Assembly: GCA_020632255.1 (NCBI GenBank)
Contig: JACKFX010000004.1
Coordinates: forward strand, 26,515-90,514
Source: Pseudomonadales bacterium
Lineage (GTDB): Bacteria; Patescibacteriota; Microgenomatia; UBA1400; PJMF01
Length of the DNA: 64,000 nt
Direction of reading: 5' to 3'
Shown here: piece after piece, positions 34,810 to 41,244 of the stretch
Layout: each line of letters starts with the position of its first letter
Position numbering within the stretch: the stretch's first letter is position 1
Notes under the pieces: model-generated
The model's input: only the letters and a program-made list of their open reading frames with translations
What the model was told of the DNA's origin: nothing
Databases searched by the model: none
Position numbers and translations under genes: made by a program

Positions 34810-35364
34810 TTAATTTCTGAGAGAAACCACTGTTGTAAAATGTTGGGTAGATTCTTCATTGGTAGTGTTGTTAACTGATGGCACAACCTTACTCAGGTCG
34901 AAGTCAATCTGAACAGAACGAGTTCCACTATATGCCTCTGTACAGTCAAACTGCAACGAACCAGGAACAACTGTGACGGCATCAGAAGTCAAGAATACAT
35001 CACTATTTGAAGCTATTTTGGAAACAGAATCATCAATTGCTTCTATGAACTCTGTCACCCCCCCATCTAACGATTCGAGAGCAATACTAGACATGTTACT
35101 CTGACACACCTGTGCAGACGAGTTAGTTGTTAACTGATATGAATTTCGAAGCATAAACTCCATTTGAGACAGCGCATTTGAACCCTCAACCTTGAGAGTA
35201 TTCTTGGTATTGGTTCGTGCGTTAGTAATCAGAAACGTCATAAACATCGACGAAACCGTCAAACTGAGAATTACCATCAGCGACGTCACAATCATCAGCT
35301 CGATGAGCGTAAACCCACTTTGTCTGTTGTTTTTATGTGGACTACCTTCGCTTCTCTGCTGCAT
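34810..35364 (-). CDS. Minor pilin / pseudopilin, in opposite orientation to the rest of the locus
   Basis: G^FTLIELMIVTSLMVILSL prepilin motif. Confidence 0.75.
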   Translation of the reverse strand: MQQRSEGSPHKNNRQSGFTLIELMIVTSLMVILSLTVSSMFMTFLITNARTNTKNTLKVEGSNALSQMEFMLRNSYQLTTNSSAQVCQSNMSSIALESLDGGVTEFIEAIDDSVSKIASNSDVFLTSDAVTVVPGSLQFDCTEAYSGTRSVQIDFDLSKVVPSVNNTTNEESTQHFTTVVSLRN

Positions 35365-35408
35365 ATCCCCACCGGGCCTTCACACTTTTTCTGTAAGTGG
35401 GATTTATT

Positions 35409-36056
35409 TTACTCTATTTGAGTATCATTATCTATGGCTGTGTCTATTAACTCTCTAATAACTTCAGATTTTCCAACCTTTTTTTCTATGGATTTTTTTT
35501 CTAAATATGAGTATTGTTCTCCAGTTATAAATAGATTGAATCTAGTAGTTACATCCTTTTTTGCTTGTTCGAGCGACTCTGAGAGAATAACGTCAATATC
35601 TTTCATTGAATATTCCCAGATTTGTAGTTTTGATTTTTCGATTCCTTCTGCAAAAGCTGGCAAACGGTTTCTAAGATGCAGTAAAATAATTGGCTTGTTG
35701 TTTTGAAGTGCTACATTTAGAAGGTATCCCATTGTTAGACTATGAGTAGACACTTCAAGAATTACAATATCTGCTAATTGAGTATGTCTCATTGCATTTT
35801 TATATCGAAGTTTTTTTTCTTCAAATGAGTCTGAGTAAACTTTTTCTTGATTCATGTCATTTCTGAAATCATCGAGATGTGTATGCCCAAGCTCTAAAAT
35901 GGAATTAAAGATGTGTAATGAGTTTGTAAAAACCTCATCATTACCTCTGGCGGAAGTGGTATAATATATTTTCATTTGAGACATTTTACCATGTGTGTAA
36001 ATACCACACGTCTTATATACGATCTTAGTGGTATAATACCGGGAATGAATACTGCT
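35409..36056 (-). CDS. Nucleoside 2-deoxyribosyltransferase-like Rossmann domain fused to a C-terminal ribbon-helix-helix-like tail. Paralog of the 37111..37674 gene. The start is either MKIYY at 36056 or the Met at 36065.
   Basis: MKIYYTTSARGNDE… and …ADIVILEVSTHSLTMGYLLNVAL…KPIILL match the NDT/DNPH1-like pattern. The C-terminus RFNLFITGEQYSYLEK…GKSEVIRELIDTAI is RHH-like. The canonical Glu next to the G-Y motif is absent. About 33% GC. Confidence 0.55.
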   Translation of the reverse strand, partial: SSIHSRYYTTKIVYKTCGIYTHGKMSQMKIYYTTSARGNDEVFTNSLHIFNSILELGHTHLDDFRNDMNQEKVYSDSFEEKKLRYKNAMRHTQLADIVILEVSTHSLTMGYLLNVALQNNKPIILLHLRNRLPAFAEGIEKSKLQIWEYSMKDIDVILSESLEQAKKDVTTRFNLFITGEQYSYLEKKSIEKKVGKSEVIRELIDTAIDNDTQIE

Positions 36057-37100
36057 GAAAAACAAATATTAGCCAGAAGAAGAGAAAAACCTTTTATTGT
36101 TTCTGATCTTCATATGCATAGTATGGGAGAATCAGTATTTCAGTATATTGAAATAAAAATGCATCAATTGCTCAGGGATGAAAATGCGGAAAAATACGAC
36201 GAAATTTTAGTTATAGGTAGCTATGATAGAAGTGTAATTGTTTCTGAACATGAAAAAGATGGTAAGTTAACAAATTGGCAACGTCCTACTGCTGAGGTAT
36301 TTGAAAATAAATTGATCCTTAAGTGTTTTCCTGGCAAAGATTATGTGCGCCACTATGCATCTCTTGTGGCTTCTTACTTTGCTTTGCAGGGTAAACGTAG
36401 TGACCATGTCTCATATATTTTGCCTACAGAAAAAGAATGCTGGACCGCCGTTGATAGTCTTGCCCTAGAAACGGTAGAAGTTACTGATGCAGTTGTTTTG
36501 GGAGTAGAGCTGTTTAATTTTACTGATGAGAATACCATATGGCAGGGAGATGACGAAATATTTTGGGCAACAGAAAGACTAGAATCTGGCAAACAAGTGA
36601 CATATTTGATTGTGCAATTTAGTTTTTGGGCAGATATTTTATACAGAATTGTTCATAAAATCGCAAAACTAGGACATAAAAAAGTAATTTTTACGGCAAA
36701 ACTTGGTGGAATTGCTGAGGATATAATTCCCAATGCAACTCTAGCCACTGGGAACACAGGTTATATTAATGGCCAATTTATTAAATGGAAGAATGTTTTT
36801 GAGAAGAGTAAGTCTGATTTATTAATGAAGGGGTCACATATCAATTCTCCATCTGTATTATTTGAAGTTTCTGAATGGGTGAACTACTTTCACAAGTTTA
36901 CTTTTGTTGATTCTGAGGTTGGATATTTTGCCCTAGCTGCAAAAGAAGCAAATCTCGATTTTGGTTATATGCATTTTGTTTCAAATAATTTAACAAAAAT
37001 TCATGATGAAGACTTATCGAATGAGAGATCAATTGAGGTTCTAGAGAAAAGAAAAAAACTTAACGCTGAAATTCAAAGATTAATAAAGGAAGTTATTTAG
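36045..37100 (+). CDS. PNP/UDP-1 superfamily protein (purine nucleoside phosphorylase or MTA-nucleosidase-like) with a roughly 200-aa N-terminal extension
   Basis: The C-terminal half aligns by eye to the Pfs/PNP pattern: …KVIFTAKLGGIAEDIIPNATLATGN… resembles the SAGG loop, and …FVDSEVGYFALAAKEANLDFGYMHFVSNNL resembles the DMES…SD C-terminus. The tracked ORF opens at a TTG at 35976; the first ATG in frame with good context is at 36045. Confidence 0.55.
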   Translation: MNTAEKQILARRREKPFIVSDLHMHSMGESVFQYIEIKMHQLLRDENAEKYDEILVIGSYDRSVIVSEHEKDGKLTNWQRPTAEVFENKLILKCFPGKDYVRHYASLVASYFALQGKRSDHVSYILPTEKECWTAVDSLALETVEVTDAVVLGVELFNFTDENTIWQGDDEIFWATERLESGKQVTYLIVQFSFWADILYRIVHKIAKLGHKKVIFTAKLGGIAEDIIPNATLATGNTGYINGQFIKWKNVFEKSKSDLLMKGSHINSPSVLFEVSEWVNYFHKFTFVDSEVGYFALAAKEANLDFGYMHFVSNNLTKIHDEDLSNERSIEVLEKRKKLNAEIQRLIKEVI

Positions 37101-37110
37101 GAGAAAACTT

Positions 37111-37674
37111 ATGAAAGTTCATTTTGCAGCTGCCGTAGATGGTAGTAAAGAAGACTACAAAAATATTTGTAACTTAATTGAAAAAATTGGGCACACAGTT
37201 GTTACTGATCATTACTTAAATAGAACAATTTCGGATATTGAAAAGGAAACACCTGCAGAAGCAGAGTTATACGCAAAAAGATCAATGAGATGGATAAAAA
37301 ATGCCGATGTTGTTGTATTCGAAACATCAAAGCCTGATGTTAGTGTGGGTTATGAACTCGCAGTAGCTGTAAATCTTCTTAAACCAGTTGTTGTTATGTA
37401 CAACAATGAGAAAGCACAGGTCCCAAACAGTATTAAGGGGGTTGAATCAGATAAGCTTCAAATTATTGGATATAGTGAACACACTCTTGAGGAAATACTC
37501 GATATTTCGTTAGAAAATGCACACGATTCTCAAGACGTCCGCTTCAACTTCTTCATCTCCCCTGCAATCGGTAACTACCTTGACTGGATTTCTAAGAACA
37601 AGAAAATTCCACGCTCAGTGTACCTTCGCAACCTTATCCAAAAGGATATGGAAGAAAACGAAGAATATCGCTAA
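37111..37674 (+). CDS. Nucleoside 2-deoxyribosyltransferase-like Rossmann domain fused to a C-terminal ribbon-helix-helix-like tail. Paralog of the 35409..36056 gene.
   Basis: MKVHFAAAVDGSKE…IKNADVVVFETSKPDVSVGYELAVAV…KPVVVM fits the NDT pattern, with Glu retained after G-Y. The C-terminus RFNFFISPAIGNYLDWISKNKKIPRSVYLRNLIQ is RHH-like. Confidence 0.55.
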   Translation: MKVHFAAAVDGSKEDYKNICNLIEKIGHTVVTDHYLNRTISDIEKETPAEAELYAKRSMRWIKNADVVVFETSKPDVSVGYELAVAVNLLKPVVVMYNNEKAQVPNSIKGVESDKLQIIGYSEHTLEEILDISLENAHDSQDVRFNFFISPAIGNYLDWISKNKKIPRSVYLRNLIQKDMEENEEYR

Positions 37675-37919
37675 ACCCTAGCATTTTTCTTCTTCACTTC
37701 CCTCCCCCCAAATGTAGGCACTACCATCCTCAAGGGTGTTTTTGAGGTTTGTGTTGGTCTTGGTCGGAACGTCACCACTAGGCTAAAAGGCGTCAAATCA
37801 TTGGAAAGTTCCGAGCAGAAGCGAACTGTTGGTGAGCGTCCAACGCAAACCCCATAAACCCCTTGCCTATTACTCTGAAAGTACGGTATGATGAAACATA
37901 GTAGCAATGCGCACGTACT

Positions 37920-38699
37920 ATGCTTAAAAAAAATCCTTTATACCAGTCAGGACAAGTGGCCGTTGTGGTGCTGCTTATCATGGTCGTTTTATTGACCATT
38001 GGTTTGTCTTTGGCAACTCGAACTACTCAAGAATTATTCCTTTCTGACCAACAGGCAGACAGTGTTCGTGTTTTTAATGCAGCAGAATCTGGAATCGAAG
38101 AAGCTTTGAGTCAGGTTACCGAAGGACAGCAAACTCTTACTGTCGATGGTGTTGACGTCACCTTCGATGTCCAAGGTAGCAGTCGTCTCGAGGCACGCGT
38201 TGCTGAAGGAGCCAGTTTGCATCTCGATTTATCTGGGTATGACAACGATATTACGTTTAATTGGGCTTCTGAGGGCGATTGTACCAACCGCGCATCGTTA
38301 GTCGCCCATATCTTCTATGACGACTCTGGCACAACTCGATCAATTGCTATTCCATTTGGACCAAGTTGTGATGGTCATACCGATAACTTTATCGATGCAA
38401 ACACAATTGGGGGTGACCCTTATTATCATCGCTATGTACTTCAAGCAACACAAATTCCTTCTGGTGCGCTTTTCATGCGCGTGCGTCCTGTATATGCTGA
38501 TACCGATATTCTCGTAGAAGGAAATATTGGCTTCCCAACTCAGTATTACATCATTTCTTCTTCGGCTACCTACACAGAAGGTGACGAAGAGCGTAACATT
38601 GAAGTTTCTCGAACCTTGCCTGCTGGTCCAGCATATATGGATTACGCATTATATTCAGGAGGAGCTATAAATTCAGGAGTAGCTATCACGCAACTATAA
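37920..38699 (+). CDS. PilX-like pilus-associated protein with an N-terminal transmembrane segment
   Basis: GQVAVVVLLIMVVLLTIGLSLATRT resembles the PilX N-terminal domain. It sits directly upstream of pilMNO. Confidence 0.5.
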   Translation: MLKKNPLYQSGQVAVVVLLIMVVLLTIGLSLATRTTQELFLSDQQADSVRVFNAAESGIEEALSQVTEGQQTLTVDGVDVTFDVQGSSRLEARVAEGASLHLDLSGYDNDITFNWASEGDCTNRASLVAHIFYDDSGTTRSIAIPFGPSCDGHTDNFIDANTIGGDPYYHRYVLQATQIPSGALFMRVRPVYADTDILVEGNIGFPTQYYIISSSATYTEGDEERNIEVSRTLPAGPAYMDYALYSGGAINSGVAITQL

Positions 38700-38728: not shown

Positions 38729-39736
38729 ATGTCTACACTCGTTCTCGATATTGGTACCTACAGTATAAAGGCCATCGCTGGTAAGGCTGGTCCTAAACCC
38801 AAAATTGAGCGTATTGCAGAGGTTTTTAATACCACAGGTATTGCGGTTCCAACCGATGATGTGAATCAAGATAAACTCATTAATTTGATCGAGTCTGTGA
38901 TTGTCGACAACGACCTACCACGCACAGATGTTCGTCTTTCATTGCCCGAGTCAGTTATTTCCAGTAAAGTTATCGAAATTCCTCCTCTTAGTGACGCAGA
39001 GCTTGCATCTGCTATTGGTTGGCAAGCCGAGCAACACATCCCTATTCCTCCAGAAGAGTTGGCTCTTGAGTATCAAGTGCTGTATCGTCCGCCAAAAAGT
39101 GAAAAGCGACCAATGAGAATCATGTTGATTGGTGCTCGCAAGCAGGTGGTCGATCGGTACGTTGATATGTTCCACGCCCTCGGTATTGAGCCGTCACTCG
39201 TAGAAACACATATGCTTTCTCTGGTTCGCTCCCTGATGTTCACTGCCGAAGATCCGAATACCATGGTCGTCCACATTGGTGCCTCAAGTATGAATATGGC
39301 TGTTGTTCGTCAAGGTGAGATTGCGTTTGTGACGTCGCACATGAATGGGGGGCAGTTGTTAACCAAAGCCCTCGAAAAGTCTGTTGGCCTTGATCAAGAT
39401 CAGGCAGAAAAATACAAACGCACATATGGATTGGATGAGACTCAGTTCCAAGGAAAAGTTGCCCAGGCAATACTGCCGGGGATACAAGTCCTCTCGAATG
39501 AGATTAAGAAGTCAGTACAGTTTTTCGGTACCCAATTTCCCAATGAATCAGTTCAGCGTGTAGTTCTCTCTGGGGGGACTGCATCGATGCCAAACTTAGT
39601 GCAGTTTATTGCTCAAGAACTCGGTACAGAAGTATTAGTTGCAGCTCCATTTACTGGTGTTGAAGGTACCGTTCCAGAAACGATCAATCCTCCTGCTATG
39701 GGAGTGTGTATGGGATTACTCTTGAGAGAATTGTAG
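38729..39736 (+). CDS. pilM: Type IV pilus assembly protein PilM (actin-like ATPase fold)
   Basis: MSTLVLDIGTYSIKAIAGK… matches the FtsA/PilM family N-terminus. Confidence 0.85.
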   Translation: MSTLVLDIGTYSIKAIAGKAGPKPKIERIAEVFNTTGIAVPTDDVNQDKLINLIESVIVDNDLPRTDVRLSLPESVISSKVIEIPPLSDAELASAIGWQAEQHIPIPPEELALEYQVLYRPPKSEKRPMRIMLIGARKQVVDRYVDMFHALGIEPSLVETHMLSLVRSLMFTAEDPNTMVVHIGASSMNMAVVRQGEIAFVTSHMNGGQLLTKALEKSVGLDQDQAEKYKRTYGLDETQFQGKVAQAILPGIQVLSNEIKKSVQFFGTQFPNESVQRVVLSGGTASMPNLVQFIAQELGTEVLVAAPFTGVEGTVPETINPPAMGVCMGLLLREL

Positions 39737-39737
39737 T

Positions 39738-40355
39738 ATGGCAAGGTTAATTAACTTTGTAGCCAACCGCAGAAAACGTCTCACTCAGCAACAATTGCAG
39801 GATGAGAAGTGGTTTCGATATGCCATTATTGGGGTAATGGTTATCTTTGTGTTTTTTTTGATTGTGGTTAGTGTTCGCTTTTTCTTGGTCTATCGATTCA
39901 ATCGCCTTGAAGAGGATCAGGCGAACACACGTAAAGCAATTTCAGCTCAAGAAAATATCGAGAAGGATTACAACATTTTTGCTCATAAGTTGCGTGCGCT
40001 TTCCGATTTGTTTGGAAAACGCCAAGATAAGCAAGAAGCCATGGTGTACTTTTCACAAGCGTTCGGTCCCCATGTGATTATTAGTGGAATCGACTACTCG
40101 GAAGATGACAACAACATCGTCTCATTCACTTTGACTGCTCCAAGTGTTTTTGATCTAGAAAATGTGTTCAAAGTACTTGAGTCAGATGAAGTCAAGCAAA
40201 AGTATGCCAAAGTTGATCGTAGCGATTTGGGTCGTGGAGAAAATGGTGCCTACACGATCAAGCTTACTATCATCTTGGGTGTGTCGGATTACCTAGATGA
40301 GGTTGCAACTGCAGCGAGTGAAACGGCAGTAGACATAGGGGTATTGGAAGAATAA
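39738..40355 (+). CDS. pilN: PilN-like pilus assembly protein
   Basis: Single transmembrane helix, then a coiled-coil and periplasmic domain. Positioned after pilM. Confidence 0.6.
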   Translation: MARLINFVANRRKRLTQQQLQDEKWFRYAIIGVMVIFVFFLIVVSVRFFLVYRFNRLEEDQANTRKAISAQENIEKDYNIFAHKLRALSDLFGKRQDKQEAMVYFSQAFGPHVIISGIDYSEDDNNIVSFTLTAPSVFDLENVFKVLESDEVKQKYAKVDRSDLGRGENGAYTIKLTIILGVSDYLDEVATAASETAVDIGVLEE

Positions 40356-40359
40356 GATT

Positions 40360-41244
40360 ATGCCGGCAAAGAAACAACAATTTAATTACAAGTTGCTTTG
40401 GGTTACACGACGTAAGTTAGTGTACACTGTTGGTTTGGTTGTGCTTGGCTTAGGTTTGGTAGCGTTTGCAATCTATCCTCAAATTCGGGAAAGTTTAGCT
40501 CTTAACACTAAATATTCTAAACAGGCGCCGACTTTAACAAAACTAAAATCAAAGTTAGTTGAACTACAATCAATAGATTCTACAGAGGAGTATTCACAAG
40601 CTTCTATCGTTAACTCTGCCCTTCCCTCAAGAAAACCATTACTTGAGTTTTTGACAAGCTTAAACACAATCGCAGTGAAAAACAATATTTCTGTCACTAA
40701 TTTTGAGTTGACACCTGGAAATATTTCAACAGATAGTGCTGATACTACTACCTCTAAATCAAAAGTGAATACTGATGTTGATTCAATGGAATTAGATCTT
40801 GAGATTGAAGGCAGTTTCGATGAGCTGCAGCAATTTTTGCTTGATATTGAAAGAATTTCACCGTTTACTACCATTACTCAGCTTTCACTCGGACAAGGCG
40901 CCTCTGCTGCTGATCGTGGCACTAACAAAGCTATCAGGGCTAAGCTGAGTACCAGTACGTATTTCTTTACCCAGTCTATCAAGGCACCCGTTGATGCTCC
41001 ACTTCCTGAGTTGACCGCGCTAGATAGAAATGTCTTGACTGCTTTGTCACAATTCCAGGACCATGGTCTTCCAGAACAAACAGAGATTGTTGGTGGCGGT
41101 GTTGAAGACCCTTTTGGAATCTCAAAATTGCAGATATTAGATGAGTTAGGCGGACAACTCCCGACTAATGATCTGGGAGCGCTTCAGGAAGAGTTAGAAG
41201 TAACACAAGCTCAAGATAAAGCAGTCTTTGACGCTCAGGATTAA
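40360..41244 (+). CDS. pilO: PilO-like pilus assembly protein
   Basis: N-terminal transmembrane helix and a periplasmic domain. Positioned after pilN. Confidence 0.55.
   Translation: MPAKKQQFNYKLLWVTRRKLVYTVGLVVLGLGLVAFAIYPQIRESLALNTKYSKQAPTLTKLKSKLVELQSIDSTEEYSQASIVNSALPSRKPLLEFLTSLNTIAVKNNISVTNFELTPGNISTDSADTTTSKSKVNTDVDSMELDLEIEGSFDELQQFLLDIERISPFTTITQLSLGQGASAADRGTNKAIRAKLSTSTYFFTQSIKAPVDAPLPELTALDRNVLTALSQFQDHGLPEQTEIVGGGVEDPFGISKLQILDELGGQLPTNDLGALQEELEVTQAQDKAVFDAQD

What the first reader, a model, noticed from the sequence alone, without database searches (positions are those of the whole stretch)
35365..37700. AT-rich three-gene cassette inside the pilus locus: two NDT-like/RHH paralogs flanking an extended PNP/nucleosidase-like protein
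Seen in sequence. GC drops from about 45–47% in the neighbouring pilin and pilM genes to about 33% across 35.4–37.7 kb. It then rises abruptly again right after the stop at 37674. The cassette interrupts an otherwise contiguous type IV pilus superlocus, and its first gene abuts a pseudopilin that is inverted relative to the others.

The three proteins form an unusual set:
- Two paralogs (35409–36056 on the minus strand, and 37111–37674 on the plus strand) share a nucleoside 2-deoxyribosyltransferase / DNPH1-like Rossmann pattern: MK(I/V)(Y/H)…; …AD(I/V)V(I/V)…S…(T/V)(M/V)GY(L/E)L…; KP(I/V)(I/V).
- Each of the two ends in a ribbon-helix-helix-like segment: RFN(L/F)F(I/T)… followed by helix-turn-helix-like residues.
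- One paralog retains a Glu next to the GY motif. The other has Leu there, which suggests one catalytic and one sensor or regulatory copy.
- The middle gene (36045–37100) has a C-terminal half that reads as PNP/UDP-1 superfamily (an MTA/SAH-nucleosidase-like SAGG loop and a DxE…SD tail). Its roughly 200-aa N-terminal extension has no recognisable identity.
- The divergent 5' ends of the first two genes overlap by about 12–20 nt.

From established knowledge: in comparative-genomic surveys, NDT/SLOG/TIR-like Rossmann domains and PNP-family nucleosidases recur together in nucleotide-signal-based conflict and immunity systems. PNP-family domains are known effectors in several anti-phage systems. 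I do not know of any described fusion of an RHH domain to an NDT-like domain.

Inference: this is a horizontally acquired, nucleotide-centred accessory module. It could be a defence or conflict system (NAD or nucleoside depletion, or signal generation). Alternatively it could be a nucleoside-scavenging module whose expression is self-regulated through the RHH tails. Either would be new.
Basis: partly seen in the sequence, partly recalled or inferred. Interest (0 to 1): 0.8.

Follow-up and report, generated by a model that had tools for sequence, protein, structure and literature searches.

The report
Nucleotide-handling gene trio in pilus locus
Three AT-rich genes inside the pilus locus of an ultra-small (CPR, Woesebacteria-like) bacterium are not a recent foreign insert or a defence island; they are an old, conserved trio: two DNPH1-like nucleotide-binding proteins, each probably ending in a DNA-binding tail, and a new kind of nucleosidase-fold enzyme, placed next to the machinery thought to import DNA.

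Summary
Three ORFs (A 35409-35984 minus; B 36045-37100; C 37111-37674) are the three lowest-GC genes in the window. A and C are paralogs (32% identity).

- **A and C:** the N-terminal domain is a DNPH1/Rcl homolog (profile E=6e-21; Foldseek TM about 0.8). The C-terminal 45 residues fit a ribbon-helix-helix pattern, but every sequence score for it is below threshold. C keeps the nucleophile Glu; A has Leu.

Recent transfer and defence are not supported:
- The trio sits at the same place, with the same low GC, in relatives down to 42-61% identity.
- There are no PADLOC, phage or viral-contig hits, and no flanking repeats.

DNPH1-RHH genes form an unannotated, expanded family in Microgenomates. 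In 24 of 27 pilus-bearing loci one lies directly upstream of pilX-like-pilMNO. B-family members elsewhere are fused or adjacent to NUDIX, CYTH and thymidine/thymidylate-kinase genes, and to 7-deazapurine genes in Streptomyces.

Best reading (about 0.45): a vertically inherited nucleotide salvage and sensing module coupled to the DNA-uptake pilus, with PutA/NikR-like enzyme or sensor regulators. No operator was found.

The parts
34810..35364 (-). Inverted prepilin-type gene (184 aa), co-directional with and 44 nt downstream of gene A
   Evidence: N_methyl PF07963 scores 30.2 bits against a gathering score of 21.2. The same inverted pilin lies downstream of the A-position gene in relatives.
35409..35984 (-). 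Gene A: DNPH1-like domain without the nucleophile Glu (Leu in GYLL), plus a diverged RHH-like tail; 191 aa
   Evidence: Paralog of C, E=1e-26. The deposited protein MCA9368881.1 starts MSQMKIYY. It has no Pfam hit of its own.
35430..35552 (-). RHH-like tail of A (TTRFNLFITGEQYSYLEKKSIEKKVGKSEVIRELI)
   Evidence: Aligns with the tail of C. Weak RHH_1 hit, E=0.11. Other paralogs carry the same RFN...SK(A/S)xFIRxLI pattern.
35985..36044 (.). 60-nt divergent intergenic region between A and B holding both putative promoters
   Evidence: Sequence read. A minus-strand promoter-like site TTTTCA-17-TATTAT lies at 36061-36033.
35993..36009 (.). Inverted repeat GTGTG-N7-CACAC; candidate operator (weak)
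   Evidence: Read from the sequence. A similar TGTG-N7-CACA lies in the same intergenic region of L001. It is not conserved in L004, L008 or L013.
36029..36037 (+). Extended -10 box TGGTATAAT, 7 nt before the B start codon (B mRNA probably leaderless)
   Evidence: The same box precedes B in L001, L008 and L013. TGnTATAA is enriched upstream of family genes, 27/42 against 113/428.
36045..37100 (+). Gene B: 351-aa NP-I (PNP/UP/MTAN) fold protein with about 110-145 extra, strongly conserved N-terminal residues
37111..37674 (+). Gene C: DNPH1-like domain with nucleophile Glu82, plus canonical RHH-like tail; 187 aa; its Shine-Dalgarno site overlaps the B stop codon
   Evidence: PDB profile search E=6e-21 to Rcl/DNPH1. 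Foldseek E=6e-9, 27% identity. Pfam PF05014 34 bits, above the gathering score.
37531..37656 (+). RHH-like tail of C (DVRFNFFISPAIGNYLDWISKNKKIPRSVYLRNLIQKDM)
   Evidence: 16 of the 20 invariant columns of alignment A1 fall here. In the AF2 model residues 141-150 are extended, followed by helices 151-163 and 168-182. RHH_3 E=0.02-0.03. In-register hhalign to CopG, E=0.021.
37728..37747 (+). Terminator-like hairpin plus T-run after C
37731..37866 (+). Long hairpin filling the unusually long C-to-pilX spacer; specific to this genome
   Evidence: Nested inverted repeats. MFE -53.2 kcal/mol, z=-3.76. Single copy in the window. No Rfam family. The spacer is 37-148 nt in the B-carrying relatives, though two more distant loci (L023, L081) have spacers as long or longer.
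37863..37892 (+). Own promoter of the pilX-like-pilMNO operon (TTGCCT-18-TATGAT, preceded by a C-rich tract)
   Evidence: The composite motif is found upstream of the pilX-like gene in 15 of 27 loci, which is half of its 30 occurrences in 1.09 Mb.
37920..38699 (+). PilX-like minor-pilin-type gene (259 aa); the invariable downstream neighbour of a DNPH1-RHH gene
   Evidence: PilX_N 23.3 bits against a gathering score of 25.5. Synteny.
38729..41244 (+). pilM, pilN-like and pilO-like genes
   Evidence: PilM_2 E=4e-45; PilO and T2SSM_b are above their gathering scores.

Best explanation
A vertically inherited, lineage-specific nucleotide-handling module sits at the centre of the type IV pilus locus in a Woesebacteria/Pacebacteria clade of Microgenomates (CPR).

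Shown:
- Two ancient paralogs of the DNPH1/NDT superfamily each carry a C-terminal tail with a ribbon-helix-helix pattern.
- The two paralogs lie on opposite strands on either side of B. A is followed by the inverted pilin. B and C are translationally coupled and followed by a terminator-like hairpin.
- B is an NP-I-fold protein.
- pilX-like-pilMNO follows with its own conserved promoter.

Inferred:
- B and C process nucleosides or nucleotides derived from scavenged DNA or RNA, cleaving or exchanging the N-glycosidic bond.
- A has lost the nucleophile. The whole family has lost the DNPH1 general-acid Asp. The DNPH1-like domains therefore act at least partly as ligand sensors.
- Through their RHH dimers these proteins repress or activate the divergent A|B promoters, and possibly the adjacent pilX-pilMNO promoter.
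- Salvage and DNA-uptake pilus expression would then track nucleotide pools, following the logic of PutA (enzyme plus RHH repressor) or NikR and MetJ (ligand-controlled RHH).
For: Protein identities:
- DNPH1 homology of A and C.
- RHH-like tail, in register with CopG and NikR, with an extended stretch plus two helices in the AF2 model and R-F-N and (P/S)(R/K)(S/A) motifs kept in all paralogs.
- Catalytic-site decay with pocket conservation over 128 family members: Asp80 equivalent never Asp; Glu104 equivalent is Glu in 70 and hydrophobic or other in 58; Ser98 equivalent is Ser in 110; Glu93 equivalent is Glu in 127 (residue roles from PMC10483697).
- NP-I fold of B.

B acts in nucleotide chemistry:
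- Fused to NUDIX and, below Pfam's cut-off, CYTH.
- Adjacent to NUDIX, thymidine kinase and His-phosphatase genes in Uabimicrobium, and to genes read by eye as CYTH-like (not scanned) in L095 and L096.
- Lies between FolE-QueD-QueE and a thymidylate kinase-like gene plus NUDIX on three Streptomyces plasmids.

Vertical inheritance and link to the pilus:
- Same slot in L001, L004, L008 and L013 (inverted in L007) and in L093.
- Same low GC in relatives.
- A DNPH1-RHH gene directly upstream of pilX-like-pilM in 24 of 27 loci.

Operon anatomy.

Background: CPR bacteria are expected to scavenge DNA for nucleotides, and pili and competence genes are enriched in them (PMC6744442).
Against: - No shared operator was found upstream of family genes. 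Only the extended -10 box is enriched.
- The RHH assignment never reaches a curated threshold.
- No DNA binding, ligand binding or catalysis has been tested.
- The loci were collected by searching for the DNPH1-RHH family. The pilus association is therefore measured in one direction only.
- Many family members lie in non-pilus contexts (RecR-radical SAM-PfkB, RmlC-aminopeptidase).
- pilX-pilMNO has its own promoter, and a terminator-like hairpin separates it from C. Co-regulation is therefore not implied by the transcription units.
- Persistently low GC and GC3 in all relatives is not explained by this model.
Confidence: 0.45

Rival explanations
1. A purely metabolic salvage or sanitation cassette. 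C is an active (deoxy)nucleoside or dNMP N-glycosidase or transferase. B is a nucleosidase or phosphorylase. A is an inactive structural partner. The C-terminal tails serve only for dimerisation or for tethering to DNA, not for gene regulation. The battery of paralogs clears or rebalances canonical and modified nucleotides released from imported DNA, as human DNPH1 clears hmdUMP.
For: - C keeps Glu82 and passes PF05014.
- B and C are translationally coupled in all B-carrying CPR loci.
- Partners encoded next to nucleotide enzymes (B, deaminase) keep the Glu.
- B-family neighbours are nucleotide enzymes.
- DNPH1 is a homodimer with a shared active site (PMC10483697), so a dimerising tail fits.
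- No operator was found.
Against: - The general-acid Asp is absent from all 128 members, and the nucleophile from 45% of them.
- In C, Asp replaces two phosphate-site residues.
- The tail has the features of DNA-binding RHH domains, and its R-F-N strand is the most conserved motif. That is hard to explain by dimerisation alone.
Confidence: 0.27
2. Part of a pathway that makes or handles non-canonical nucleotides (for example 7-deazapurine or other modified (d)NMPs). B would form or exchange the N-glycosidic bond. DNPH1-like proteins would recycle or proof-read intermediates. In other lineages methyltransferases, deaminases or GTP cyclohydrolase II would provide alternative chemistry.
For: - B homologs at 35-38% identity lie inside QueD-QueE-FolE ... 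thymidylate kinase-like, SAM methyltransferase and NUDIX clusters on three Streptomyces plasmids.
- The slot held by B carries methyltransferase- or deaminase-like genes in other Microgenomates.
- GTP cyclohydrolase II and radical-SAM genes occur next to other family members.
Against: - No deazapurine genes are seen near the cassette (the ORFs from 33 to 40 kb are listed), nor in the CPR loci examined.
- The deaminase looks like an ordinary TadA/CDA-type enzyme.
- The Streptomyces context may reflect a different sub-function of a broad family (539 representatives).
Confidence: 0.1
3. A horizontally acquired anti-phage or conflict system that depletes nucleotides or NAD or produces a signal.
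For: - Low GC and GC3.
- PNP-fold and NDT/TIR-like domains do occur in conflict systems (established knowledge), and a weak TIR hit appears.
- One NUDIX-B fusion (L006) lies near DNA methyltransferases, a PIF1 helicase and a T5orf172 gene.
- The middle slot varies among lineages.
Against: - No PADLOC hit for any of the three proteins.
- Conserved position and composition in all relatives examined.
- No mobility genes or flanking repeats.
- Neither family was found in phage records or IMG/VR contigs.
- The neighbours are core pilus and housekeeping genes.
Confidence: 0.05

Closest known systems
DNPH1 / Rcl (2'-deoxynucleoside 5'-phosphate N-hydrolase 1)
   Same: Same fold and clear sequence homology over about 130 residues (E=6e-21; 27% identity; TMt about 0.8). 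The ADVVVxE(V/T)SxPSxGVGYE motif is shared. The nucleophile Glu is kept in C and in 55% of the family. The Tyr is kept or conservatively replaced.
   Different: The general-acid Asp80 equivalent is never Asp. 45% of members, including A, lack the nucleophile. In C, His replaces Tyr24, and Asp replaces both Arg30 and Ser98 at the phosphate site. An extra 45-residue RHH-like tail is present. The family is bacterial, multi-copy and linked to the pilus locus.
Nucleoside 2-deoxyribosyltransferase (Pfam PF05014)
   Same: C passes the Pfam gathering score and keeps the Glu nucleophile. An Asp at the DNPH1 Ser98 position in C recalls the 5'-OH-binding Asp of NDTs. That comparison rests on my recollection of the NDT literature and was not tested here.
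   Different: The profile match to solved NDTs is weak (E=0.03-0.16). The catalytic Asp equivalent is absent. A does not match the Pfam model. The RHH tail is extra.
Ligand- or enzyme-coupled RHH regulators: PutA, NikR, MetJ (and CopG/Arc/Mnt as minimal RHH)
   Same: The predicted logic is the same: an RHH DNA-binding module joined to an enzyme or small-molecule-binding domain. The genes sit beside divergent promoters. The tail aligns in register with CopG (strand RFNFFIS against RLTITLS; turn IPRS against LSKS) and with NikR.
   Different: The RHH is C-terminal rather than N-terminal. The sensor domain is unrelated to those of PutA, NikR or MetJ. No operator or DNA binding has been shown. All sequence scores are below curated thresholds.
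NP-I superfamily nucleoside phosphorylases and nucleosidases (MTAN, uridine phosphorylase, hexameric PNP, AMP nucleosidase)
   Different: Identity is only 10-18%, and Pfam is below threshold. In the only sequence alignments obtained, the three phosphate-binding Arg of uridine phosphorylase have no counterpart, and Thr94 aligns with a nearly invariant Lys219. The about 110-145 extra residues carry family-specific invariant motifs (Y34, K38, N77, R80-P81, Y100, H103). The substrate is unknown.
Tubercidin/toyocamycin-type 7-deazapurine nucleoside clusters
   Same: B homologs on Streptomyces plasmids sit beside FolE, QueD, QueE and NUDIX genes. Tubercidin biosynthesis starts from 7-carboxy-7-deazaguanine (CDG) and ends with a Nudix hydrolase; the paper (PMC6112128) was seen only as a title and abstract opening, and these details are from my recollection of it.
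   Different: The CPR cassette has no deazapurine genes. Those Streptomyces clusters lack the PRPP-dependent transferase described for tubercidin and carry B instead.

Membership tests
DNPH1 (2'-deoxynucleoside 5'-phosphate N-hydrolase) | Rossmann-like DNPH1/NDT fold with significant sequence homology | tested here: met
   Profile against PDB E=6e-21. Foldseek E=6e-9, TMt about 0.8, 27% identity.
DNPH1 (2'-deoxynucleoside 5'-phosphate N-hydrolase) | Nucleophile Glu104 (human numbering) | tested here: inconclusive
   Present in C (Glu82) and absent in A (Leu). Family-wide it is Glu in 70 of 128 members.
DNPH1 (2'-deoxynucleoside 5'-phosphate N-hydrolase) | General acid/base Asp80 | tested here: not met
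   The equivalent is Ser in C and Ala in A, and it is never Asp in 128 members. Its role is taken from PMC10483697.
DNPH1 (2'-deoxynucleoside 5'-phosphate N-hydrolase) | Tyr24 paired with the nucleophile | tested here: inconclusive
   His in C and Tyr in A. Family-wide: Y 71, F 27, H 19.
DNPH1 (2'-deoxynucleoside 5'-phosphate N-hydrolase) | 5'-phosphate site (Ser98 side chain, Arg30/Gly31 loop, Ser128' of the partner subunit) | tested here: not met
   C has Asp at both the Ser98 and Arg30 positions. A has Ser and Arg. The Ser128' position is Pro in 119 of 128 members, although the alignment is uncertain in that loop.
DNPH1 (2'-deoxynucleoside 5'-phosphate N-hydrolase) | dNMP N-glycosidase activity | not testable with these tools
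   Needs an enzyme assay.
Nucleoside 2-deoxyribosyltransferase (PF05014) | Pfam gathering score | tested here: inconclusive
   C scores 34.0 bits against 28.8 and passes. A has no hit.
Ribbon-helix-helix DNA-binding domain | Strand-helix-turn-helix pattern with alternating strand residues and a G/P-x-S/T/K turn before helix 2 | tested here: met
   The motif is RFNFFIS - helix - IPRS - helix. In the AF2 model residues 141-150 are extended, with helices 151-163 and 168-182. The pattern is kept in all paralogs.
Ribbon-helix-helix DNA-binding domain | Significant match to a curated RHH model or a solved RHH structure | tested here: not met
   RHH_3 scores about 15 bits against 21.6. RHH_9 and RHH_1 are weaker. 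The PDB profile search found no RHH. hhalign gave E=0.021 to CopG, 0.061 to NikR and 0.41 to Arc.
Ribbon-helix-helix DNA-binding domain | Dimer with a two-stranded sheet that binds operator DNA | not testable with these tools
   No multimer prediction or binding assay was available. No shared operator was found.
NP-I nucleoside phosphorylase/nucleosidase superfamily (PNP_UDP_1) | NP-I alpha/beta fold | tested here: met
NP-I nucleoside phosphorylase/nucleosidase superfamily (PNP_UDP_1) | Pfam gathering score | tested here: not met
   16.4 bits against 25.1. One distant family member passes (P0209, 30.5 bits).
NP-I nucleoside phosphorylase/nucleosidase superfamily (PNP_UDP_1) | Phosphate-binding Arg set of the phosphorylases | tested here: inconclusive
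   There is no counterpart in the weak sequence alignments to uridine phosphorylase (E about 0.6-1.5). Other invariant basic residues exist (K38, R80, K219, R336). A structural superposition is needed.
NP-I nucleoside phosphorylase/nucleosidase superfamily (PNP_UDP_1) | Catalytic Asp of the S-D motif | tested here: inconclusive
   SNN in this clade and SDN in the wider family consensus. Equivalence to the catalytic Asp is inferred from position only.
Known anti-phage defence systems | Match to a defence-protein model | tested here: not met
   No PADLOC hit at E<=1 for A, B or C.
Known anti-phage defence systems | Patchy distribution, defence-island or mobile-element context | tested here: not met
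   The slot is conserved within the pilus locus in all relatives examined. The neighbours are pilus and housekeeping genes.
Recently acquired genomic island | Atypical composition | tested here: met
   The three lowest-GC genes of the 49 in the window.
Recently acquired genomic island | Absent from relatives; flanked by repeats, tRNA or mobility genes | tested here: not met
   The trio is present, with the same low GC, in relatives at 42-70% identity. No bracketing direct repeats were found. The only tRNA is 18 kb away. Phage DNA and viral contigs gave no match; the only mobile-element matches are distant B homologs on six plasmids.

The most novel reading that the evidence does not exclude
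The DNPH1-RHH proteins are a previously unrecognised family of one-component, nucleotide-sensing transcription factors. They would have been built from a decaying N-glycosidase (pseudo-enzyme sensor) and an RHH domain, and expanded to as many as five copies in a single Microgenomates locus. The copy wired next to pilX-pilMNO would gate expression of the DNA-uptake pilus, and of the salvage enzymes encoded beside it, according to the cell's (deoxy)nucleotide pools. That would be a direct molecular link between competence-type pili and nucleotide auxotrophy in CPR bacteria.
Probability: 0.3. Interest if true: 0.75.

Novelty: new variant of a known kind. Interest (0 to 1): 0.55.

Why it matters
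CPR/Patescibacteria generally cannot make nucleotides. They are assumed to live off imported DNA, using their abundant type IV pili and competence genes (PMC6744442). No genetic link between the pilus and nucleotide processing came up in my literature searches.

In this locus, proteins of the DNPH1 and nucleoside-phosphorylase superfamilies are fixed at the centre of the pilus locus across a whole CPR lineage. Two of them probably carry DNA-binding tails. That gives concrete proteins and DNA fragments with which to test whether pilus expression and salvage respond to nucleotide supply.

The work also defines two unannotated families:
- A DNPH1-RHH fusion family, with more than 400 database clusters, all labelled hypothetical or generic.
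- An extended NP-I family, with 539 representatives. Its links to NUDIX, CYTH, thymidine/thymidylate kinases and 7-deazapurine clusters point to unexplored N-glycosidic-bond chemistry at the nucleotide level.

Tried and rejected
1. Defence system: PADLOC gave no hits.
2. Phage or mobile origin:
   - No DNA or protein match in 50,697 phage records.
   - No relatives of B or of the DNPH1-RHH family in IMG/VR.
   - No direct repeats bracket the cassette.
3. Shared operator for the RHH tails:
   - k-mer counts on 130 upstream regions.
   - Inverted- and direct-repeat enumeration against 511 control regions.
   - Mismatch-tolerant 7/8-mers on 42 true intergenic regions.
   - Only the extended -10 promoter box emerged. 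Local palindromes exist in each locus but differ in sequence.
4. Stand-alone or differently fused copies of the RHH tail: the profile search returned only C-terminal fragments of the same architecture.
5. Significant RHH match: not obtained from Pfam, the PDB profile search or hhalign.
6. Known RNA in the long C-to-pilX spacer: none in Rfam.
7. Searches that could not be run as planned:
   - The wider B alignment (A3) on metagenome contigs had no conserved stretch to search with.
   - The afdb50 fold library was unavailable.
8. The A-position paralog keeps the Glu in L001 and lacks it in the window, L004, L008 and L013.
9. The literature search found no description of an NDT/DNPH1-RHH fusion or of these genes in CPR.

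Full report
**Observation**

- A: 35409-35984 on the minus strand, 191 aa. The longest ORF runs to 36065.
- B: 36045-37100, 351 aa.
- C: 37111-37674, 187 aa.

Sliding GC falls to 0.31-0.38 across 35.4-37.4 kb and returns to 0.42-0.46 on both sides. A (0.320), B (0.340) and C (0.369) are the three lowest-GC genes of the 49 in the window (mean 0.440, sd 0.032). Third-position GC is low too: 0.26, 0.245 and 0.32 against a mean of 0.414. The low GC therefore reflects codon choice as well as amino-acid composition.

A and C are paralogs, with 32% identity over 179 residues and E=1e-26. One sub-claim fails. The deposited start of A is MSQMKIYY (MCA9368881.1), and homologs starting MKIY agree. The divergent genes are therefore separated by 60 nt (35985-36044) and do not overlap.

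nr assigns the proteins to a Candidatus Woesebacteria bacterium. All three are annotated 'hypothetical'.

**A and C**

A profile built from 33 relatives of C matches rat and human DNPH1/Rcl at E=6e-21 to 1e-16 over residues 3-133. True nucleoside 2-deoxyribosyltransferases match only at E=0.03-0.16. The AF2 model of C (pLDDT 89) superposes on DNPH1 structures with TMt about 0.8 and 27% identity. C also passes Pfam PF05014; A does not.

I mapped the residues that define DNPH1 catalysis (PMC10483697) onto 128 non-redundant family members:

| Human DNPH1 residue | C | A | Family (128 members) |
|---|---|---|---|
| Glu104, nucleophile | Glu82 | Leu | Glu in 70 |
| Asp80, general acid | Ser | Ala | never Asp |
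| Tyr24 | His | Tyr | Y 71, F 27, H 19 |
| Ser98, phosphate site | Asp | Ser | Ser in 110 |
| Arg30, phosphate loop | Asp | Arg | Arg in 43 |
| Glu93 | Glu | Glu | Glu in 127 |

These proteins are homologs of DNPH1 but cannot be filed as DNPH1 orthologs. The pocket is conserved while the catalytic apparatus has partly decayed.

**The C-terminal tail**

The last 45 residues of C read DVRFNFFISPAIGNYLDWISKNKKIPRSVYLRNLIQKDM. They hold 16 of the 20 invariant columns of the alignment.
- In the monomer model, residues 141-150 are extended and are followed by two helices.
- Pfam gives repeated sub-threshold hits to RHH_3, RHH_9 and RHH_1.
- hhalign places the tail in register with CopG (E=0.021) and NikR (E=0.061), but not with Arc.
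- More distant paralogs, including A, keep the pattern RFN-h-h-h-S/T ... SK(A/S)xFIRxLI.
- A profile search with the tail alone found only fragments of the same architecture.

I rate the RHH assignment as likely, at about 0.8-0.85. No test reached a curated threshold.

**B**

With 11 homologs as the alignment, AF2 gives a confident single-body model (pLDDT 90.7, pTM 0.90).
- Foldseek agrees (E=1e-10, probability 1.00, 220-245 aligned columns).
- Sequence similarity is marginal. Pfam PNP_UDP_1 scores 16.4 bits against 25.1, and PDB profile searches give E about 0.6-1.5.
- In those weak alignments the phosphate-binding arginines of uridine phosphorylase have no counterpart.
- The putative S-D catalytic motif reads S-N in this clade, but S-D in the wider family.

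The remaining 110-145 residues, mostly N-terminal, carry the strongest family-specific motifs (Y34, K38, N77, R80-P81, Y100, H103). They match nothing known.

An exhaustive profile search finds 539 cluster representatives, 162 of them at E<1e-30. Fusions in these include NUDIX (both orders), CYTH (20.0 bits, below Pfam's cut-off of 23.2), an aldo-keto reductase and ankyrin repeats. Gene neighbours elsewhere:
- NUDIX, thymidine kinase and a His-phosphatase in Candidatus Uabimicrobium.
- Genes that I read by eye as CYTH-like (from their N-terminal EXEXK-type motif; not scanned) in two metagenome loci.
- On three Streptomyces plasmids, a conserved cluster of QueD-QueE-FolE-hypothetical-B-thymidylate kinase-like-DUF2797-SAM methyltransferase-NUDIX.

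B therefore belongs to an uncharacterised NP-I branch that works among nucleotide-level enzymes.

**Comparative genomics**

The B-carrying relatives keep the trio in the pilus locus:

| Locus (equivalent records) | Identity of B to the window's B | Arrangement |
|---|---|---|
| L001 (= L002, L003, L011) | 61% | same slot |
| L004 (= L012) | 52% | same slot |
| L008 (= L009, L045) | not measured; its C is 73% identical | same slot |
| L013 | not measured; its C is 64% identical | same slot |
| L007 | 42% | inverted |
| L093 | 41% | B diverges from a single C-type gene, with no second paralog called |

Sources. In each of the five B-carrying relatives tabulated for composition (L001, L004, L007, L008, L013) the three genes are again 6-13 GC points below their pilus neighbours. 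The low GC is old and persistent. It is not a mark of recent arrival.

A genome-wide scan for the DNPH1-RHH family returned 80 loci. Most records with an informative taxon label are Microgenomates (Pace-, Woese-, Collier-, Beckwith- and Chisholmbacteria) or unclassified Patescibacteria; many carry a 'Pseudomonadales' or other non-CPR label (see item 9 of the passing observations). Many loci hold two to five paralogs.

Twenty-seven non-redundant loci also contain the pilX-like-pilM genes. In 24 of them a DNPH1-RHH gene is the immediate, co-directional upstream neighbour of the pilX-like gene. The general layout is:

inverted pilin < (sometimes three large genes) < DNPH1-RHH < | > variable gene > DNPH1-RHH > pilX-like > pilM-N-O

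B fills the variable slot only in the clade of the window. Elsewhere the slot holds a Methyltransf_23-like gene (10 loci), a dCMP/cytidine-deaminase-family gene (4) or an unknown 325-aa protein (2).

Other family members lie in non-pilus contexts: RecR-radical SAM-PfkB kinase, RmlC-aminopeptidase, GTP cyclohydrolase II and a P-loop kinase.

Because the loci were collected through the DNPH1-RHH family, the association is established only in that direction.

**Tests of transfer and defence**

- No PADLOC model matches any of the three proteins.
- No phage record matches at the DNA or protein level.
- No IMG/VR contig encodes either family.
- No direct repeats bracket the cassette.
- The only tRNA is 18 kb away.

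The one residual point in favour of exchange is that the middle slot differs among lineages.

**Regulatory anatomy**

- B is preceded by an extended -10 box, TGGTATAAT (36029-36037), 7 nt before its ATG. The same box precedes B in relatives.
- A minus-strand promoter-like site overlaps it.
- Between the two genes lies an inverted repeat, GTGTG-N7-CACAC (35993-36009). L001 has a similar one, but L004, L008 and L013 do not.
- The Shine-Dalgarno site of C overlaps the stop codon of B.
- A terminator-like hairpin follows C at 37728-37747.
- pilX-like-pilMNO has its own promoter, TTGCCT-18-TATGAT at 37863-37892, preceded by a C-rich tract. This composite element occurs upstream of the pilX-like gene in 15 of 27 loci. 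Those 15 are half of its 30 occurrences in 1.09 Mb.

Three searches for a shared operator upstream of family genes found only the extended -10 box.

**Mechanism**

*Shown:*
- The domain identities.
- The paralogy of A and C.
- The conserved slot and composition.
- The B-C coupling.
- The separate promoter of the pilus operon.
- The nucleotide-enzyme company kept by B.

*Inferred:*
- B and C cleave or exchange N-glycosidic bonds on nucleosides or nucleotides from scavenged nucleic acid.
- The DNPH1-like domains act as ligand sensors, wholly in A and partly in C.
- The RHH tails make these proteins regulators of the flanking promoters. This follows the logic of PutA, NikR or MetJ.
- CPR bacteria are expected to scavenge DNA for nucleotides through pili and competence proteins (PMC6744442). 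That makes the placement sensible.

I give this composite model 0.45. Within it, 'conserved nucleotide module, not a defence or transfer island' stands at about 0.8, and the regulatory coupling at about 0.35. The rivals are:
- A purely enzymatic salvage or sanitation battery, with tails used for dimerisation: 0.27.
- A non-canonical-nucleotide pathway, suggested by the Streptomyces context: 0.10.
- A conflict system: 0.05.

**Comparison and novelty**

Both families are new branches or architectures of well-known superfamilies, so I class the finding as a new variant of a known kind. No paper in the searchable library describes a DNPH1/NDT-RHH fusion or these genes in CPR.

The interest lies in three things: a lineage-wide physical link between the pilus locus and nucleotide-processing or sensing proteins, a likely pseudo-enzyme-plus-RHH regulator family, and an NP-I family tied to NUDIX, kinase and deazapurine genes. 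None of this is yet functional evidence, and the persistent low GC remains unexplained.

Noticed in passing
window 37855-37892; also L001, L004, L008, L010, L031, L032, L034, L038, L040, L041, L046, L065, L077, L078 upstream of the pilX-like gene: A conserved promoter-like element precedes pilX-like-pilMNO across Microgenomates that differ widely in sequence. It is a C-rich tract followed by TTGC(A/C), about 20 nt, then TAT(T/G)AT. It occurs there in 15 of 27 loci, and those 15 are half of all its occurrences in 1.09 Mb.
   Followed up: partly
window 37731-37866: A 136-nt hairpin (-53 kcal/mol, z=-3.76) fills the 245-nt spacer between C and the pilX-like gene. The B-carrying relatives have spacers of only 37-148 nt, though two more distant loci (L023, L081) have spacers as long or longer. 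The hairpin is single-copy in the window and matches no Rfam family. It may be a small inserted element, a structured 3' UTR or a small RNA.
   Followed up: partly
window 37894-37903 / 37916-37925: The palindrome AAACATAGTA / TACTATGCTT spans the start codon of the pilX-like gene, just downstream of its -10 box. L008 has the same arrangement. It could be a 5' stem-loop or an operator.
   Followed up: no
window 35955-35966 and 36027-36038: An exact 12-nt direct repeat, AGTGGTATAATA, occurs twice, 72 nt apart. One copy is the extended -10 box of B. The other lies inside the first codons of A, in antisense orientation.
   Followed up: no
L103 5935-6990, L104 5935-6990, L106 6971-8026 (Streptomyces plasmids NZ_CP107821, NZ_CP108712, NZ_CP020040): B homologs (35-38% identity, annotated 'hypothetical') lie inside a conserved cluster: QueD-QueE-FolE-hypothetical-B-thymidylate kinase-like-DUF2797-SAM methyltransferase-NUDIX. 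This looks like an uncharacterised 7-deazapurine nucleoside or nucleotide pathway that has no obvious PRPP transferase.
   Followed up: partly
L034 5211-9109: Five DNPH1-RHH paralogs are clustered around one unknown 325-aa gene, directly upstream of pilX-like-pilMNO. Only one of the five keeps the nucleophile Glu.
   Followed up: no
L004 1056-7243, and the equivalent stretches of L013, L032, L044 and L050: In several relatives three large genes (about 1160-1390, about 190-240 and about 560-710 aa, with no Pfam domains) sit between the A-position DNPH1-RHH gene and the inverted pilin. They form a leftward operon that is missing from the window.
   Followed up: no
L040 3310-3897, L062 2454-3008, L065 2619-3179, L046 8634-10808: A different small protein family ends in another RHH-like tail (...FSFVLSLNTFLYFEKASRENHSTKAGFLRRLIENH). 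It is encoded next to DNPH1-RHH genes and has no Pfam hit.
   Followed up: no
window 36045-37674 (protein records MCA9368881-3 / MCB9801162-4): The same proteins are labelled 'Pseudomonadales bacterium' in one NCBI record and 'Candidatus Woesebacteria bacterium' in nr. Many related MAGs also carry a 'Pseudomonadales' label although their gene content is CPR-like.
   Followed up: no
L006 7318-8751: A NUDIX-B fusion protein (477 aa) lies among a PIF1-type helicase, two DNA methyltransferases and a T5orf172 gene. This is the only B-family context seen that resembles a mobile element or defence island.
   Followed up: no
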